From positions 1 through 56,631 of the forward strand of contig CANRDM010000001.1 in assembly GCA_947629365.1 (NCBI GenBank): a DNA stretch of 56,631 bases, in the 5' to 3' direction. The stretch comes from an uncultured Bacilli bacterium (GTDB lineage: Bacteria; Bacillota_I; Bacilli_A; RF39; UBA660). Under the pieces are notes generated by a model. That model was not told the DNA's origin. It ran no database searches and saw nothing but the letters and a program-made list of their open reading frames with translations. The first letter of the stretch is position 1. Every line of letters begins with the position of its first letter. Of this stretch, positions 16,937 through 49,650 are shown piece after piece. The translations under genes and the position numbers were made by a program.

Positions 16937-17404
16937 TTAATAACCTTTGCTTTTATAATATTCATATAATTCTTTGAAGCGATTAAAATGGACTACTTCT
17001 CTTTGTCTTAAAAATAAAAGGGGAGCTAGAACATCTTCATCATCAGTTAAATCAATTAAGTTTTCATAAACCGCTCTTGCTTTTTGTTCAGCAGCCATAT
17101 CTTCCATTAAATCGGCAATTGGATCGGCAGTTACAGCAAAATAAGTTGCGGTAAAAGGTACACCACTTGCATCAACTGGATAAATACCTTTATTATGGTC
17201 AGCATAATATGAAGCAAGACCAGCTTCTTCTAATTCTTTTAAAGATGCATCTTTAGTAAGTTCACTAACCATTGAGCAAATCATCTCACAATGACCTAAT
17301 TCTTCAGTTGCAATATCATTAAGTAAGGCTCTTCCTTTGTCATCTGGCATTGTAAATTTTTGACTAAAATAACGCATTGCGGCAGCTAATTCTCCATTTG
17401 CACC
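16937..17404 (-). pseudogene. cotJC: cotJC (Mn-catalase-family spore coat protein), 3' portion cut off from its 5' end by the prophage
   Basis: Translation ...FGGANGELAAAMRYFSQKFTMPDDKGRALLNDIATEELGHCEMI...MEDMAAEQKARAVYENL... is colinear with remembered B. subtilis CotJC from about residue 29 onward. It lacks a native start. The track ORF start at 17416 lies in phage DNA. Confidence 0.9.
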
Positions 17405-17423
17405 ACCAAAGTGCAAAAGCGAT
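17395..17423. other. attL junction (host cotJC arm | GCACC core | phage arm)
   Basis: catttGCACCaccaaagtgcaaaagcgat. The phage arm 17409-17423 is the reverse complement of atcgcttttGcactt, matching the attR phage arm in 14 of 15 positions. Confidence 0.75.
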
Positions 17424-17728
17424 AGTTAAATGATTTCGAACATAAAAAGAAAGCAAATAAATTTCTTAAAATTCAAAATGAAATAGTTGATTCATTTGAT
17501 AATTTGTAATAATAAAAGATGTGAAATAGTGCCTAATTAGTATCACCCAAAAAATGAAGTATTAAATTAGTAAAGTTAGAAAGAAACAGATTCAGTTTAG
17601 AATACCACGAAAAATGGCAAGAAGATAAATCTTTTAACGATTACTGGCATAAATTAGGGCAAATAAGATTTATGCAATATTATGATAAAACTAAAGAAGA
17701 ATTTATTAAAATTTTTAAGAAAAATTAC

Positions 17729-17758
17729 TTGTAAAATCATAATACAATATATTATAAT
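17729..17758 (+). promoter_or_regulatory. sigma-A-type promoter of the small structured transcript
   Basis: TTGTAA - 18 nt - TATAAT. Predicted start near 17766. Confidence 0.6.
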
Positions 17759-17765
17759 GTTTATT

Positions 17766-18020
17766 GAGATACATTTTGTTAGGTGCTTTTCCTCCGCTAA
17801 GCTTACAGCAGAACGGAGGTGATGCCTATGAGTGAGGAATTGAATGGAATATTTGATTATTCTTGCAATAATCCTATATCTTCTTCGAGACTGCAGTCAA
17901 AGACATTAAAAAAGAAGCACCTAATCATTGTCGATGCGACTTTGATGGTGCTTCAAAAACTTGAAACAATAGAAACATAAGGCGGAGATAGCACTTAACA
18001 TCTAAAATGTATCTCTTTTT
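17766..18020 (+). ncRNA. structured transcript of about 255 nt (candidate type I toxin mRNA)
   Basis: The 5' end GAGAUACAUUUU+GUUAGGUGCU (17766-17787) pairs with AGCACUUAAC (17990-17999) and AAAAUGUAUCUC (18004-18015), followed by U5. Internal hairpins are CCUCCG/CGGAGG (17791-96/17814-19) and 17914-17954. Confidence 0.55.
17844..17909 (+). CDS. 21-aa hydrophobic peptide, candidate type I toxin
   Basis: MEYLIILAIILYLLRDCSQRH, with GAGGA 5 nt upstream of the ATG. Below the ORF-track length cut-off. Confidence 0.4.
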   Translation: MEYLIILAIILYLLRDCSQRH

Positions 18021-18093
18021 ATGTCCTATAAATATAATATACTAATTTTCATTAATATATTCATAACAAATTAACACAAAAATAGTAATTTGT
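17908..18093 (-). ncRNA. candidate antisense sRNA (about 185 nt) convergent with the small transcript
   Basis: It runs from the minus-strand promoter at 18100-18128 to a strong minus-strand terminator, GAAGCACC-AUCA-..GUCG-CAU-CGAC..-UGAU-GGUGCUUC + U6 (17954-17908). It overlaps about 110 nt of the plus transcript's 3' region. Confidence 0.5.
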
Positions 18094-18099
18094 ATATTC

Positions 18100-18128
18100 A
18101 TTATAATACTTTTATACTACAAAATCAA
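18100..18128 (-). promoter_or_regulatory. sigma-A-type promoter for the antisense RNA
   Basis: On the minus strand TTGATT (18128-18123) - 17 nt - TATAAT (18105-18100). Confidence 0.55.
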
Positions 18129-18143
18129 TACTAAAAATGTATT

Positions 18144-18175
18144 AAAAAAACAAGGTAGAGATTAAATTCCCTACC
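18144..18175 (-). terminator. intrinsic terminator of the phage lysis operon
   Basis: On the minus strand GGUAGGG-aauuuaau-CUCUACC (one G-U) is followed by UUGUUUUUUU, directly after the endolysin stop. Confidence 0.75.
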
Positions 18176-18853
18176 TCATTTATATAGTTTAATATTTTTA
18201 ACATTCATCGAAGCCCATACTACAAGTTTGTCTTTTCTTTTAGCTGATAAAACTGCTCTATCTTCTTTTAAATCGGTAATAGTGTAATATTTATCGTATT
18301 GTTTCAGTTTAGTGCCACTGTAATTTACTAACTTAGTTGGTACTACCAAGTCACCAACTTTAAATTTTTGTACCTCTACAGGATCATTTTGAGGCTCTAT
18401 TGATGTTTCAATTTTAATATTGGGTAAATCTGTATCAACATAAGGTGTAGGATCTATTTTTACATTTTTTTCATTTCTTACTTCAAAATGTAAGTGAGCG
18501 CCATCACTACGTCCAGTATTTCCCATATAACCAAGTTGTTGTCCTTTAGTTACTTTGTCACCTTTTTTAACTTTAACTGTACCTAATTTAAAGTGAGCAT
18601 ATAAAGTATAATAACCATTAATATGTTTAATTTTCACATAATTACCATAGCTATGGCCACCTTTATCATTTGTTTTGTAATCTGATTCACATTCTACTAC
18701 CTCCCCGTCAGTATGTGCTAAAACATAATCACAAACACTTTTACTATTTTTATTACCTACTACATCAATTCCGTAATGTATTGGCGGATTATATTTCCAA
18801 GTTATCTTATTTGAATATGTTTTTAATAATCTACTCATATTATTCTCCGTCAT
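18176..18853 (-). CDS. endolysin, M23 (LytM-type) peptidase with a C-terminal SH3-like binding domain
   Basis: HxxxD and HxH metallopeptidase pattern ...YGIDVVG... GYMGNTGRSDGAHLHFEVR. Lies directly after the holin-like genes. Confidence 0.8.
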   Translation of the reverse strand: MTENNMSRLLKTYSNKITWKYNPPIHYGIDVVGNKNSKSVCDYVLAHTDGEVVECESDYKTNDKGGHSYGNYVKIKHINGYYTLYAHFKLGTVKVKKGDKVTKGQQLGYMGNTGRSDGAHLHFEVRNEKNVKIDPTPYVDTDLPNIKIETSIEPQNDPVEVQKFKVGDLVVPTKLVNYSGTKLKQYDKYYTITDLKEDRAVLSAKRKDKLVVWASMNVKNIKLYK

Positions 18854-48091: not shown

Positions 48092-49534
48092 ATGAAAGAA
48101 GAAAGAATTGCTGCAATATATATTCGTGTCAGTACAGATTCTCAAACAGAATACTCTCCTGATGCACAATTAAAAGCAATAAAAGAATACGCCAAAAGAA
48201 ATAATATTGAAATAGATCCTAAATACATATACAAAGACGAAGGCTTTAGTGGCCGTAAAGCAGAAAAAAGACCAGCATTTATGCAAATGATCGCTACAGC
48301 TAAAACAAAGCCTACTGCCCCATTTAATGTTATCTTAGTACATAAACTAGATAGATTTGCAAGAAATCGTGAAGATAGTATAGTTTATAAATCATTACTC
48401 AAAAGGGAATGCAAAGTTGAAGTAATATCAATTACCGAAGATTTTGGCGATGATAAGTTTTCTGTTATTTTAGAGGCAATGTTAGAAGCAATGGCAGAAT
48501 ACTACTCTCTTAACTTATCTGATGAAGTAAAAAAAGGTATGGTTGAAAAGGCAAATAGAGGTGAATATCAAACAAAAGCACCCTTTGGCTATAAAATGGT
48601 CGATAAAAACTTAATTGTTGATACAGAGGCCTCAAAAATAGTAAAAATGATATTTAATGATTATCAAAATGGAATTAGTTTTAAAGGCATTGCTAAAAAA
48701 TTAAACAATTTAGGGATCAAAACTTCGCAAAATAATAAATGGGAAGTAAGAACTATTGAATATATATTAAGAAATCCTGTATATAAAGGTTATACTTTAT
48801 GGACACCTAATGCAAAAAGTAGTTGGGATTATAAATTTAAAGCAAAAAATGGCATCTTAAAAAAAGGAAGCCACGAATCAATTATTGAAGAAGCCACTTT
48901 TGATAATATTCAAAACCAAATTTTAAAGAAAAAAGATTTATATAAATCGACTTCAACTAGTAACTTTAGTTGGATTAGTAAGTTAGTAAAATGTAGTAAT
49001 TGTGGTTCTACTCTAACCACACAAAAAAATGCTCTTCAATGTATAGGCTATTCTCACGGAAGTTGTGAAGAAAGTCATTATATTAGTTATTCTAAAATTA
49101 TACCAGCAATATTAAATCAAATTCAAAAAGATTATAAAAATCCTATTAACATTAATTTTAGTAAGAAAAAAATAAAAAATGATATTTTAGATGAAAAAGA
49201 TATTTTAGAAAATAATTTAAAAAATTTGCAAGAAAAATTAGTAAGAAGTAAAAATTTATATTTAGAAGGAATAGATACTTTAGAAGAATATAAAGAGAAT
49301 AAATTGCAAATTGAAAAAAACATTAAGGAAATTAATGAAAAAATTGATAAACTACCTAAAGGCAAAGAAACAGTCAAAGAACAAAACATTTCTATAAATG
49401 CTAAAAATGTATATGAATTATTAATTGATGAAAAAATTGATATGGTAAAAAAATACACTGTCATTCACGAACTTATTGATTATATTGTTTATGATAAAAA
49501 AAATGAAACCATTGAGATTTATTACAAAGAATAA
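48092..49534 (+). CDS. large serine recombinase (phage integrase)
   Basis: 480 aa. Resolvase-type catalytic N-terminus AAIYIRVSTDSQ..., a recombinase domain, a zinc-ribbon CSNCGS..C...C and a C-terminal coiled coil. Its stop lies 21 nt from the att core. Confidence 0.93.
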   Translation: MKEERIAAIYIRVSTDSQTEYSPDAQLKAIKEYAKRNNIEIDPKYIYKDEGFSGRKAEKRPAFMQMIATAKTKPTAPFNVILVHKLDRFARNREDSIVYKSLLKRECKVEVISITEDFGDDKFSVILEAMLEAMAEYYSLNLSDEVKKGMVEKANRGEYQTKAPFGYKMVDKNLIVDTEASKIVKMIFNDYQNGISFKGIAKKLNNLGIKTSQNNKWEVRTIEYILRNPVYKGYTLWTPNAKSSWDYKFKAKNGILKKGSHESIIEEATFDNIQNQILKKKDLYKSTSTSNFSWISKLVKCSNCGSTLTTQKNALQCIGYSHGSCEESHYISYSKIIPAILNQIQKDYKNPININFSKKKIKNDILDEKDILENNLKNLQEKLVRSKNLYLEGIDTLEEYKENKLQIEKNIKEINEKIDKLPKGKETVKEQNISINAKNVYELLIDEKIDMVKKYTVIHELIDYIVYDKKNETIEIYYKE

Positions 49535-49539
49535 AAAAC

Positions 49540-49566
49540 ATCGCTTTTACACTTAGCACCTCCAAA
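49540..49566. other. attR junction (phage arm | GCACC core | host cotJC arm)
   Basis: atcgcttttacacttaGCACCtccaaa. Confidence 0.75.
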
Positions 49567-49650
49567 TTGAGTAAGTAAATATTTAGCCATTCTTAAATCT
49601 TTTTTGCTTATATTTATCGGATAATTGGTATGCTTAACATATTTAAACAT
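49556..49650 (-). pseudogene. cotJC: cotJC 5' portion (about 31 codons) separated from the rest of the gene by the prophage
   Basis: GGAGG lies 8 nt upstream of ATG 49650, which overlaps the cotJB stop. MFKYVKHTNYPINISKKDLRMAKYLLTQFGGA then reads into phage DNA (KCKSDVFYSL*). Confidence 0.85.

What the first reader, a model, noticed from the sequence alone, without database searches (positions are those of the whole stretch)
17729..18128. Convergent small-mRNA / antisense-RNA pair at the attL end of the prophage (type I toxin-antitoxin architecture)
Seen in sequence. On the plus strand a TTGTAA-18-TATAAT promoter drives a transcript of about 255 nt. Its first 22 nt pair with its last about 26 nt (17766-17787 with 17990-18015), followed by U5. 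Inside is a 21-codon ORF (17844-17909), MEYLIILAIILYLLRDCSQRH, a hydrophobic helix with a charged tail, with GAGGA 5 nt upstream. A 5' UUCCUCCG (17789-17796) can pair with that SD or with a second SD-like CGGAGG (17814-19). On the minus strand a TTGATT-17-TATAAT promoter (18128-18100) points back into the 3' region. A strong terminator (8+4+4-bp hairpin plus U6, 17954-17908) ends exactly at the stop codon of the small ORF. This predicts an antisense RNA of about 185 nt overlapping about 110 nt of the 3' UTR. Several segments have alternative partners: UUAGGUGCUU pairs perfectly with 17916-17925 or, with one G-U, with 17990-17999. Established knowledge: txpA/RatA (skin) and bsrG/SR4 (SPbeta) in B. 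subtilis are prophage-borne type I TA pairs with the same convergent 3'-overlap, a sequestered SD and a small hydrophobic toxin. Inference: this is a type I TA or exclusion module. I do not recognise the peptide, and it is short for a membrane toxin.
Basis: partly seen in the sequence, partly recalled or inferred. Interest (0 to 1): 0.7.

Follow-up and report, generated by a model that had tools for sequence, protein, structure and literature searches.

The report
Prophage small-toxin and antisense RNA pair
Near one end of a prophage lies a previously undescribed but conventionally built gene pair: a tightly folded mRNA for a 21-residue membrane-type peptide facing an antisense RNA, the layout bacteria and phages use as a "type I toxin-antitoxin" addiction or exclusion module.

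Summary
Both promoters, the 21-codon ORF, the 5'-3' closing helix, and the minus-strand terminator that abuts the stop codon are all present.

I found eight other distinct copies of the element in gut metagenome contigs and MAGs, at about 65-93% identity.
- **Small ORF:** all nine keep a 21-22 codon ORF, M[EQ]YL[IV][IA]L[AVI][IV]I[LI]Y[LI][LV] plus a polar tail. Its substitution pattern is that of a coding sequence.
- **mRNA fold:** all nine keep the end-to-end helix.
- **Antisense terminator:** all nine keep the antisense terminator.
- **Antisense promoter:** all seven testable lineages keep a convergent TTGAxx-16/17-TATAAT promoter within otherwise diverged DNA.

The type I toxin-antitoxin architecture, with the 3'-overlap seen in txpA/RatA and bsrG/SR4, is therefore well supported in silico. 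Toxicity and neutralisation remain untested.

- **Third anti-SD partner:** the 5' anti-SD CCUCCGC has a further partner, GGCGGAG at 17981-17987. Folding predicts that antisense binding passes the anti-SD to the strong upstream SD.
- **Overlapping ORF:** that SD drives a 50-codon ORF whose frame is kept open while its protein sequence is not conserved, which resembles mok in hok/sok.

No Rfam, Pfam, NCBIfam, phage, plasmid or literature match was found. I class it as a new family of a known kind, of moderate interest.

The parts
17729..17758 (+). Promoter of the small-peptide mRNA (TTGTAA-18-TATAAT). The predicted start is G17766, 7 nt after the -10 box.
   Evidence: TATAAT lies 7-8 nt upstream of the conserved GAGAU 5' end in 8 of 9 family members.
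17766..18020 (+). Predicted 255-nt toxin mRNA.
   Evidence: The fold is -83.8 kcal/mol with z = -7.8. Homologous over its full length in eight other loci. The consensus structure has 97.7% of cells paired and 6 pairs with compensatory changes, against 2.3 in shuffles.
17766..17787 (+). 5' strand of the end-to-end closing helix. It includes UUAGGUGCU, which can also pair with 17915-17924.
   Evidence: The helix is in the MFE of all 9 members. Length changes on the two strands are matched, and L015 carries a U-A to A-U flip.
17789..17797 (+). Anti-SD UUCCUCCGC.
   Evidence: It pairs with the 3' box in the free mRNA, and with SD1 when the antisense target is masked or not yet transcribed. In L014 the change CCUCCG to CCUUCG is matched by GGCGGAG to GGCGAAG.
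17814..17830 (+). SD1 (CGGAGGUGAU) and the AUG of the overlapping 50-codon ORF.
   Evidence: GGAGGTGA and the ATG are invariant in all 9 members. Predicted accessibility drops from 0.72 to 0.01 when the 3' part is masked.
17828..17980 (+). Overlapping 50-codon ORF (ORF50). Its frame is open but its amino-acid sequence is not conserved. Its stop codon abuts the 3' box.
17834..17838 (+). SD2 (GAGGA) of the small ORF.
   Evidence: GAGG lies 6 nt before the [AG]TG start in 9 of 9 members. In the window's fold it pairs with codons 13-14.
17844..17909 (+). 21-codon ORF, MEYLIILAIILYLLRDCSQRH, the candidate toxin.
17908..17954 (-). Intrinsic terminator of the antisense RNA: hairpin 17954-17914 plus U6 at 17913-17908. 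The same hairpin forms in the mRNA.
   Evidence: Conserved in 9 of 9 members, with G-C to A-U covariation at alignment pair 161-201.
17981..17987 (+). 3' box GGCGGAG, the partner of the anti-SD in the free mRNA.
17990..18020 (+). 3' strand of the closing helix (17990-18015) and the U5 tract (18016-18020).
18021..18029 (-). Conserved ATGTCCTAT just beyond the mRNA 3' end. It forms the 5' strand of the central stem of the antisense RNA.
   Evidence: Conserved outside the plus transcript. The stem uses G-U pairs, so it exists only on the minus strand.
18100..18128 (-). Promoter of the antisense RNA (TTGATT-17-TATAAT).
   Evidence: An equivalent promoter with a perfect TATAAT is present in 7 of 7 testable lineages, 56-112 nt beyond the mRNA end. 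The chance of this is 0.05-0.10 per lineage, and the plus-strand control gives 0 of 7.
17908..18093 (-). Predicted antisense RNA of about 186 nt. About 114 nt are complementary to the mRNA 3' region.
   Evidence: Fold z = -4.8. The common architecture is variable 5' hairpins, a conserved central stem-loop and a terminator. It has no conserved ORF.

Best explanation
This is a type I toxin-antitoxin-like locus of a previously undescribed family. It sits about 310 nt inside the end of a prophage that is inserted in cotJC.

**Plus strand.** It gives a roughly 255-nt mRNA whose first 22 nt pair with its last 26 nt, sealing both ends. The mRNA encodes a 21-aa peptide made of a 12-13 residue Leu/Ile-rich helix and a polar, basic tail. 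The peptide is presumed to damage or perturb the membrane.

**Minus strand.** A convergent promoter gives a non-coding RNA of about 186 nt. It ends at a strong terminator that overlaps the peptide's stop codon. It is fully complementary to the last ~114 nt of the mRNA.

**Proposed control (inferred).**
1. In the free mRNA the 5' anti-SD CCUCCGC is held by a 3' box, GGCGGAG. This leaves the strong SD1 open.
2. Ribosomes that start at SD1 read a sequence-unconstrained 50-codon ORF that overlaps the toxin ORF. They either open the hairpin that hides the weak toxin SD and start codon (coupling, as in mok/hok) or compete with that start.
3. When the antisense RNA binds the 3' region, it strips away the 3' box and the 3' strand of the closing helix. 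The anti-SD then closes SD1. The long duplex is probably cut by RNase III.
4. The antisense RNA would thus block translation from a distance and destabilise the mRNA, as SR4 does for bsrG.

**Likely role:** stabilising the prophage or mobile element, or excluding competitors.

**What is shown (sequence and computation only):** the sequence features, their conservation, the coding signature of the small ORF, and the predicted folds.

**What is inferred:** transcription of both RNAs, toxicity, the switch, the coupling and the biological role.
For: **Anatomy in the window:**

**Family:** nine distinct members were found through, and aligned.

**Small ORF**
- It is 21-22 codons in 9 of 9 members, with an ATG or GTG start and GAGG 6 nt upstream.
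- pN/pS is 0.30 in its own frame against 2.50 in the ORF50 frame. Variable columns by codon position are 11/2/8, the NTN pattern of hydrophobic codons.
- Its only indel is 3 nt, whereas 1-nt indels occur just outside it.

**mRNA structure**
- The consensus fold keeps 97.7% of cells paired. Six pairs show double changes, against 2.3 +/- 1.1 in shuffles (0 of 500 reach the observed value) and 0-2 in the slid controls.
- The terminal helix is in the MFE of 9 of 9 members.

**Antisense RNA**
- A promoter is present in 7 of 7 lineages. The product of the per-lineage chance values is about 1e-8, and the plus-strand control gives 0 of 7.
- The terminator hairpin plus U-tract is conserved, with covariation.
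- The conserved ATGTCCT beyond the mRNA end forms a stem specific to the minus strand.

**Switch**
- With the antisense target masked, SD1 accessibility is 0.02 or less in 9 of 9 members.
- In the free RNA it is 0.72-0.79 in 5 of 9 and 0.22-0.35 in 2 of 9.
- L014 carries a compensatory change in the pairing between the anti-SD and the 3' box.

**Literature**
- SR4 binds the 3' end of the bsrG mRNA and extends the SD-sequestering helix (PMC3834814).
- IbsC is 19 aa and stays toxic at 15 aa (PMC8309996).
- Type I TAs are common in Firmicute prophages (PMC6563280).
Against: - **No experiments:** there are no expression data and no toxicity data.
- **Short helix:** the hydrophobic stretch is only about 12-13 residues. 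At 21-22 aa the peptide is shorter than the 28-60 aa quoted for Gram-positive type I toxins (PMC6563280).
- **Switch not universal:** in 2 of 9 members (L013, L018) the anti-SD already closes SD1 in the free RNA (accessibility 0.06 or less), and L014 and L015 are intermediate at 0.22-0.35.
- **Little covariation in key helices:** the anti-SD:SD1 helix and the terminal helix are conserved mainly by invariance. There is no covariation for anti-SD:SD1.
- **Missing promoter:** one member, L015, has no recognisable toxin promoter.
- **Ascertainment bias:** all homologues were found through the ORF50 translation, so the openness of that ORF is biased.
- **Small sample:** nine sequences, mostly from related gut samples.
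Confidence: 0.72

Rival explanations
1. The same two RNAs exist, but the 21-22 aa peptide is not a toxin. It would be a small membrane protein with a phage function, such as modulating holin or lysis timing, superinfection exclusion, or regulating a membrane protein. Its expression would simply be tuned by a cis-antisense RNA.
For: - The locus lies next to the lysis gene, the M23 peptidase at 18176-18853.
- The peptide is shorter than known Gram-positive type I toxins (PMC6563280).
- Nothing here measures toxicity.
Against: - Other family members are not next to lysis genes. Their neighbours are a transposase, recA/thyX, a TetR-like gene and an ispH-like gene.
- The heavy multi-layer repression (sealed ends, hidden SD, antisense RNA) is typical of genes whose product is harmful.
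Confidence: 0.15
2. There is no functional antisense RNA. The minus-strand hairpin plus U6 would be only a back-up or bidirectional terminator and an mRNA structural element. The locus would then be a stand-alone, self-repressed small-peptide gene.
For: - Promoter-like hexamers are common in this AT-rich DNA: 26 were found against 20 expected in 3 kb.
- The upstream lysin gene has its own terminator at 18181-18148, so read-through is limited but still possible.
Against: - A perfect TATAAT with a -35 matching at least 4 of 6 is present on the minus strand in 7 of 7 lineages. It is absent in 0 of 7 plus-strand controls.
- The conserved ATGTCCT beyond the mRNA end forms a minus-strand-only stem.
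Confidence: 0.06
3. Both strands give purely non-coding structured RNAs, and the 21-codon ORF is incidental.
For: - The RNA is unusually structured (z = -7.8).
- Most of it is conserved at the nucleotide level.
Against: - The ORF keeps its start, stop and length in 9 of 9 members, with one in-frame indel and ATG/GTG interchange.
- pN/pS is 0.30, and the second codon position is almost invariant.
Confidence: 0.04
4. The real gene is the 50-codon ORF (17828-17980), which would encode a 50-aa soluble protein. The small ORF would be a by-product.
For: - It has a very strong, invariant SD and ATG.
- The frame has no internal stop in 9 of 9 members, against 3-7 stops in the other frames.
- Gene callers annotate it.
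Against: - The amino-acid sequence is not conserved. Members read the hairpin region in two different frames, HLIIV... against APNH....
- pN/pS is 2.5 where it overlaps the small ORF.
- It has no Pfam match.
Confidence: 0.03

Closest known systems
bsrG/SR4 (SPbeta prophage, Bacillus subtilis)
   Same: - It is prophage-borne.
- The toxin mRNA and antisense RNA converge and overlap at their 3' ends by about 110-125 nt.
- The toxin is a small hydrophobic peptide with a charged tail.
- Antisense binding at the 3' end changes pairing around the SD at a distance and also promotes decay (PMC3834814).
   Different: - There is no sequence or Rfam similarity.
- The toxin here is 21-22 aa against 38 aa.
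- Here the distant effect is predicted to work through a discrete anti-SD that swaps between a 3' box and the SD, not through extension of an existing 4-bp helix.
- An overlapping 50-codon ORF carries the strong SD.
txpA/RatA (skin element, B. subtilis)
   Same: - It sits in a prophage-like element inserted in a sporulation gene.
- It has convergent 3' overlap.
- Its toxin is hydrophobic.
   Different: - TxpA is 59 aa.
- There is no homology.
- To my knowledge RatA acts by promoting degradation only, and no anti-SD switch is known.
hok/mok/sok (plasmid R1 and enterobacterial chromosomes)
   Same: - The full-length mRNA is closed by 5'-3' end pairing.
- The toxin frame is overlapped by an upstream-starting ORF with the better ribosome-binding site (mok).
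- Conserved, mutually exclusive helices suggest a folding pathway.
   Different: - Sok binds the mok translation initiation region at the 5' side, not the 3' UTR.
- In hok, 3' processing activates the mRNA. Here removal of the 3' end is predicted to close the SD.
- There is no HOK_GEF match.
- The host is Gram-positive.
- These hok/sok details come from my own knowledge.
Ibs/Sib (Escherichia coli)
   Same: The toxin size class is the same. IbsC is 19 aa, is almost entirely Leu/Ile/Val, and stays toxic when cut to 15 aa (PMC8309996).
   Different: - Sib is fully antisense to the whole ibs gene.
- There is no sequence similarity.
- It is found in Proteobacteria.
Clostridioides difficile prophage type I TAs (for example CD0977.1/RCd11, CD0956.2/RCd10)
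   Same: - The hosts are low-GC gut spore-formers.
- The loci lie in prophages.
- They are convergent overlapping pairs with a proposed role in prophage stabilisation (PMC6563280).
   Different: - Those toxins are 34-59 aa with lysine-rich tails.
- There is no homology to this peptide or RNA.

Membership tests
Type I toxin-antitoxin system (class) | A small ORF encoding a hydrophobic, membrane-type peptide. | tested here: met
   A 21-22 aa ORF is conserved in 9 of 9 members, with a coding signature. Residues 3-14 are L/I/A/V/Y.
Type I toxin-antitoxin system (class) | A cis-encoded antisense RNA gene that overlaps the toxin mRNA. | tested here: met
   Tested in silico only. The convergent promoter is conserved in 7 of 7 lineages. 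The terminator and a minus-strand-specific stem are conserved. Expression was not measured.
Type I toxin-antitoxin system (class) | The peptide is toxic when overexpressed. | not testable with these tools
   This needs induction experiments.
Type I toxin-antitoxin system (class) | The antisense RNA neutralises the toxin by pairing with its mRNA, blocking translation and/or promoting decay. | not testable with these tools
   About 114 nt of perfect complementarity follows from the geometry. Folding predicts SD1 closure on binding. There is no experiment.
txpA/RatA and bsrG/SR4 families (homology) | Sequence or covariance-model similarity of the toxin or the RNAs. | tested here: not met
   - No Rfam hit reached the gathering score in the window.
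- No relevant Rfam hit appeared at E <= 10 in 17400-18300.
- Pfam and NCBIfam gave nothing for the peptides.
bsrG/SR4 (mechanism) | Antisense binding at the 3' end remodels pairing at the SD. | tested here: inconclusive
   Thermodynamic folding predicts this in 5-7 of 9 members. In L013 and L018 SD1 is already closed (accessibility 0.06 or less) in the free RNA.
hok/sok | A HOK_GEF-family toxin, with the antisense RNA directed at the translation initiation region of the overlapping leader ORF. | tested here: not met
   There is no Pfam match. The antisense RNA overlaps the 3' UTR, not SD1. The asRNA 5' domain shows no significant trans-pairing to the mRNA 5' part.
hok/sok | 5'-3' fold-back pairing, and an overlapping upstream ORF with the stronger ribosome-binding site. 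| tested here: met
   This is a resemblance in how the system works, not evidence of membership.
Fst/RNAII (par) | An Fst-type toxin, a shared bidirectional terminator, and direct repeats for 5' interaction. | tested here: not met
   There is no Fst Pfam or NCBIfam match. The two RNAs have separate terminators about 110 nt apart.

The most novel reading that the evidence does not exclude
This would be a type I TA family with two unusual properties.

- **Three-partner anti-SD switch:** a 3'-binding antisense RNA controls translation remotely. The anti-SD pairs with a 3' box in the free mRNA and with the SD in the antisense-bound or nascent mRNA.
- **Coupled translation:** the 21-22 aa toxin is made only through a strongly initiated, sequence-unconstrained overlapping leader ORF. 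Its stop codon sits exactly at the 3' box, so a terminating ribosome could itself reset the switch.

This would be a mok-like coupling device in a Gram-positive lineage combined with bsrG/SR4-type 3' control, and would give one of the shortest type I toxins known.
Probability: 0.3. Interest if true: 0.6.

Novelty: new member of a known kind. Interest (0 to 1): 0.42.

Why it matters
- **A new family with full anatomy:** it adds a clean, comparatively supported family to the type I toxin-antitoxin repertoire, from uncultured gut Bacilli. Promoters, both RNAs, the peptide and the alternative helices are all defined to the base.
- **A very short toxin:** it would extend Gram-positive type I toxins down to 21-22 residues.
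- **Not annotated as such:** automated annotation misses the small ORF. It calls the non-conserved 50-codon frame instead.
- **A compact test system:** the conserved three-way competition for the anti-SD, together with the frame-preserved leader ORF, would allow study of how an antisense RNA bound at a 3' end can govern initiation about 170 nt upstream.
- **A possible RNA switch part:** the element is small and could be portable.
- **Prophage biology:** for a prophage that splits the sporulation gene cotJC, an addiction module near the attachment site could affect how stably the element is kept.

Tried and rejected
**Database searches**
- **Rfam:** the gathering-score search of the whole window and the E <= 10 search of 17400-18300 gave only chance hits.
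- **Protein family and structure searches:** Pfam, NCBIfam and PDB gave nothing for the peptides or ORF50.
- **BLAST:** the element has no relative in the phage collection, where the only hit was a 46-nt chance match, or in the plasmid collection.
- **Literature:** the peptide strings occur in no paper.

**Pattern scans**
- **Viral contigs:** five DNA-pattern scans found one hit, L001, which is a chance 19-mer in GC-rich coding DNA. The other four found nothing.
- **Genome contigs:** the scan returned only the two MAGs already found.
- **JGI metagenomes:** both scans found nothing.
- **Neighbour-anchored search:** a search anchored on the neighbouring phrog_7566 gene, meant to avoid ORF50 ascertainment bias, found no relatives.

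**Look-ups**
- The exact lysin protein is not on record.

**Hypotheses rejected**
- **A SprA1AS-type mechanism**, in which the non-overlapping 5' domain of the antisense RNA pairs in trans with the toxin ribosome-binding site. Duplex energies are no better than shuffles and the sites are not conserved.
- **A coding antisense RNA.** An MLSAISALCFY... ORF appears in some members but is absent from L005, L013 and L015.
- **A MITE or IS with terminal inverted repeats.** There is no second copy in the window, and the "repeats" begin exactly at the predicted transcript ends.
- **A hok-like model in which 3' trimming activates translation.** Truncated or nascent forms are predicted to have SD1 closed.
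Full report
**1. Observation check**

- The promoter scan lists TTGTAA-18-TATAAT at 17729-17758 (+) and TTGATT-17-TATAAT at 18128-18100 (-), both 10/12 matches.
- The ORF list has the 21-codon ATG ORF at 17844-17909.
- Folding 17766-18022 as RNA gives -83.8 kcal/mol. Shuffles give -51.6 +/- 4.1, so z = -7.8 and 0 of 200 shuffles fold as well.
- In that fold nt 17766-17787 pair with 17990-18015, directly before U5.
- The minus-strand RNA 18093-17903 also folds better than chance (z = -4.8). It ends in an 8+4+4 bp hairpin followed by U6, and the U-tract overlaps the TAA of the small ORF.

**2. Context**

- The window is a low-GC contig (28.7% GC) from an uncultured gut bacterium. The identical locus occurs in ENA rabbit-gut assemblies, and related copies are in MAGs titled "uncultured Bacilli bacterium".
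- A prophage of about 32 kb is inserted in the spore-coat gene cotJC.
  - The C-terminal part of CotJC is at 16937-17416 (-) and matches Mn_catalase positions 29-189.
  - The N-terminal 32 codons lie at about 49540-49640 (-), next to cotJB and a large serine recombinase at 48092-49534.
- The element lies about 310 nt inside the prophage end. It sits between the junction and the M23-peptidase lysis gene at 18176-18853, which has its own terminator at 18181-18148.
- "At the end of the prophage" is therefore correct.

**3. A family of nine**

- Translating the overlapping 50-codon frame (17828-17980) and searching protein collections found three relatives. A profile search found five more.
- Their contigs give eight further distinct copies of the whole element. 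L007 is 93% identical, L002 and L005 are 81%, and L013, L014, L015, L018 and L020 are more distant.
- Neighbouring genes differ between copies: an ispH-like gene, a TetR-like gene, a transposase, recA/thyX, and a phage gene of family phrog_7566.
- The element therefore moves as a unit. It was found in this prophage and in other, varied and partly mobile-element-like contexts.
- No copy was found in IMG/VR, JGI metagenomes, GenBank phages or PLSDB plasmids.

**4. The small ORF is a real coding sequence**

- All nine copies keep a 21-22 codon ORF.
  - The peptides are MEYLIILAIILYLLRDCSQRH, MEYLIILVIILYILQNQNKRH, MEYLIILVIILYILQRDQNQKH, MQYLIILAIIIYLVQRDHNQKQ, MEYLIALIVILYLLQRDRNQKH, MEYLVILIIILYLLQRDRNQKH, MEYLVILVIIIYLLQQDNSKKH and close variants.
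  - GAGG lies 6 nt before the start, which is ATG in seven copies and GTG in two.
- Over codons 2-14, pN/pS is 0.30 in this frame and 2.50 in the overlapping ORF50 frame. Variable columns by codon position are 11, 2 and 8, the pattern expected when a T must stay in the middle of hydrophobic codons.
- The only indel inside the ORF is 3 nt, while 1-nt indels occur just downstream.
- The peptide matches no Pfam, NCBIfam or PDB entry and appears in no paper.
- The length is not a problem. IbsC is 19 aa and remains toxic when reduced to 15 aa (PMC8309996).
- It is shorter than the 28-60 aa quoted for Gram-positive type I toxins (PMC6563280).

**5. The mRNA structure is conserved**

- RNAalifold on the nine RNAs recovers four elements:
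  - the terminal 5'-3' helix;
  - the pairing of the anti-SD with a 3' box;
  - a long hairpin inside the small ORF;
  - the hairpin that mirrors the antisense terminator.
- Pair counting gives 97.7% of cells paired. Six pairs have changes on both sides, against 2.3 +/- 1.1 in shuffles (0 of 500 reach the observed value) and 0-2 when partners are slid.
- Some covarying pairs fall on synonymous third positions of the small ORF. One example is columns 97/115, G-C in five members and A-U in four.
- The terminal helix is nearly invariant, so it shows little covariation. It is in the MFE of all nine. It has matched 1-2 nt length changes on both strands, and L015 has a U-A to A-U flip.
- TATAAT sits 7-8 nt upstream of the conserved GAGAU in eight of nine members. 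The helix therefore starts at the first transcribed base and ends at the U-tract.

**6. The antisense gene is conserved**

- In all seven lineages whose contigs extend far enough, the minus strand carries a perfect TATAAT with a -35 matching at least 4 of 6 at a 16-18 nt spacing. It lies 56-112 nt beyond the mRNA 3' end, in sequence that otherwise does not align.
- Shuffles of each 150-nt segment give such a site in 5-10% of cases, so the product is about 1e-8. The plus strand of the same segments has none.
- The terminator hairpin plus U-tract is conserved, with G-C to A-U covariation.
- ATGTCCT, just beyond the mRNA U-tract, is conserved. In the minus-strand RNA it forms the outer stem of a central stem-loop that uses G-U pairs, so the stem exists only on that strand.
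- The predicted antisense RNAs are 170-230 nt and share no conserved ORF.

**7. How it probably works**

This section is inference from folding.

- The anti-SD CCUCCGC (17791-17797) has two strong partners: SD1 (CGGAGG, 17814-17819) and a 3' box (GGCGGAG, 17981-17987).
- In the free full-length RNA the 3' box wins in the window (probability 0.92). SD1 is then largely unpaired (0.72).
- When the region complementary to the antisense RNA is masked, or not yet transcribed, the anti-SD closes SD1 (0.01).
- The same holds for L007, L002, L005 and L020. L014 and L015 are intermediate. In L013 and L018, SD1 is already closed (accessibility 0.06 or less) in the free RNA. Masking closes SD1 in 9 of 9.
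- In L014 the anti-SD change C to U is matched by G to A in the 3' box. The anti-SD:SD1 helix is kept in 92.6% of cells but shows no covariation.
- This is the logic shown experimentally for bsrG/SR4, where binding at the 3' end extends the SD-sequestering helix and also speeds decay (PMC3834814).
- The 5' UUAGGUGCU can also pair with the 5' arm of the hairpin (AGCACCUAA, conserved). This hints at a co-transcriptional folding pathway.

**8. The overlapping ORF**

- SD1 (GGAGGUGAU-N4-AUG, invariant) does not serve the small ORF, whose start is 16 nt further on. It serves a 50-54 codon frame.
- That frame has no internal stop in 9 of 9 members, while the other two frames carry 3-7 stops. Its stop codon abuts the 3' box in 8 of 9.
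- Its protein sequence is not conserved. Members read the hairpin in two different frames and return through compensating 1-nt indels.
- This looks like selection for translation rather than for a product, as with mok in hok/sok (my own knowledge of that system).
- Because every homologue was found through this frame, its openness is subject to ascertainment bias. I could not remove the bias.
- Whether the leader couples ribosomes into the small ORF or competes with it is open.

**9. Comparison with known systems, and verdict**

- The architecture is that of 3'-overlapping Gram-positive type I TAs on prophages: txpA/RatA, bsrG/SR4 and the C. difficile prophage modules (PMC6563280).
- There is no homology to any of them, nor to any Rfam family.
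- The features that define the class and can be tested in silico are met. Toxicity and neutralisation cannot be tested here.
- I rate it a new family of a known kind, with two possibly new regulatory twists that need experiments.
- The main limits are nine sequences, mostly from related gut samples, no expression data, and predicted rather than probed structures.

Noticed in passing
window 16937-17416 (-), about 49540-49640 (-), 48092-49534 (+): The roughly 32-kb prophage splits the spore-coat gene cotJC inside the FGGA motif. It carries a large serine recombinase at the far end, and imperfect inverted arms (CGCTTTTGCACTT / AAGTGTAAAAGCG) flank the two junctions. This resembles the skin and SPbeta intervening elements, which are excised during sporulation. 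One ENA contig of the same host (L012) ends at the junction.
   Followed up: partly
window 17560-17737 (+): A decayed remnant of a phrog_7566-type phage gene (...KLVKLERNRFS...KTKEEFIKIFKKNYL*). Its stop codon overlaps the -35 box of the toxin promoter. Intact homologues lie directly upstream of the element in L014 (1932-2387) and L020 (1497-1814), so the gene and the element seem to travel together.
   Followed up: partly
L002 3722-3799 (also L003, L004, L008): An orphan second copy of the hairpin/terminator segment, 84% identical to window 17899-17978. It lies about 150 nt upstream of the complete element and has no small ORF. It may be a relic of a tandem copy.
   Followed up: no
L015 about 720-810 (also L016, L017): This family member has no recognisable promoter for the peptide mRNA. 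A terminator-like hairpin (GACTAG-AAAAAA-CTAGTC-T6) sits directly upstream instead. The antisense promoter is intact. It may be a silenced or read-through-dependent copy.
   Followed up: no
window 17828-17980 (+): Public gene callers annotate the non-conserved 50-codon frame as a hypothetical protein (P0001-P0008) and miss the conserved 21-22 codon ORF.
   Followed up: yes
L018 3414-3536 (-): A 40-aa ORF (MQPTEFIKGEGWLSWVSKVDDTSNGYAGIYGKEIDAIQIK) with its own terminator lies just upstream of the antisense promoter in this locus. Its function is unknown.
   Followed up: no
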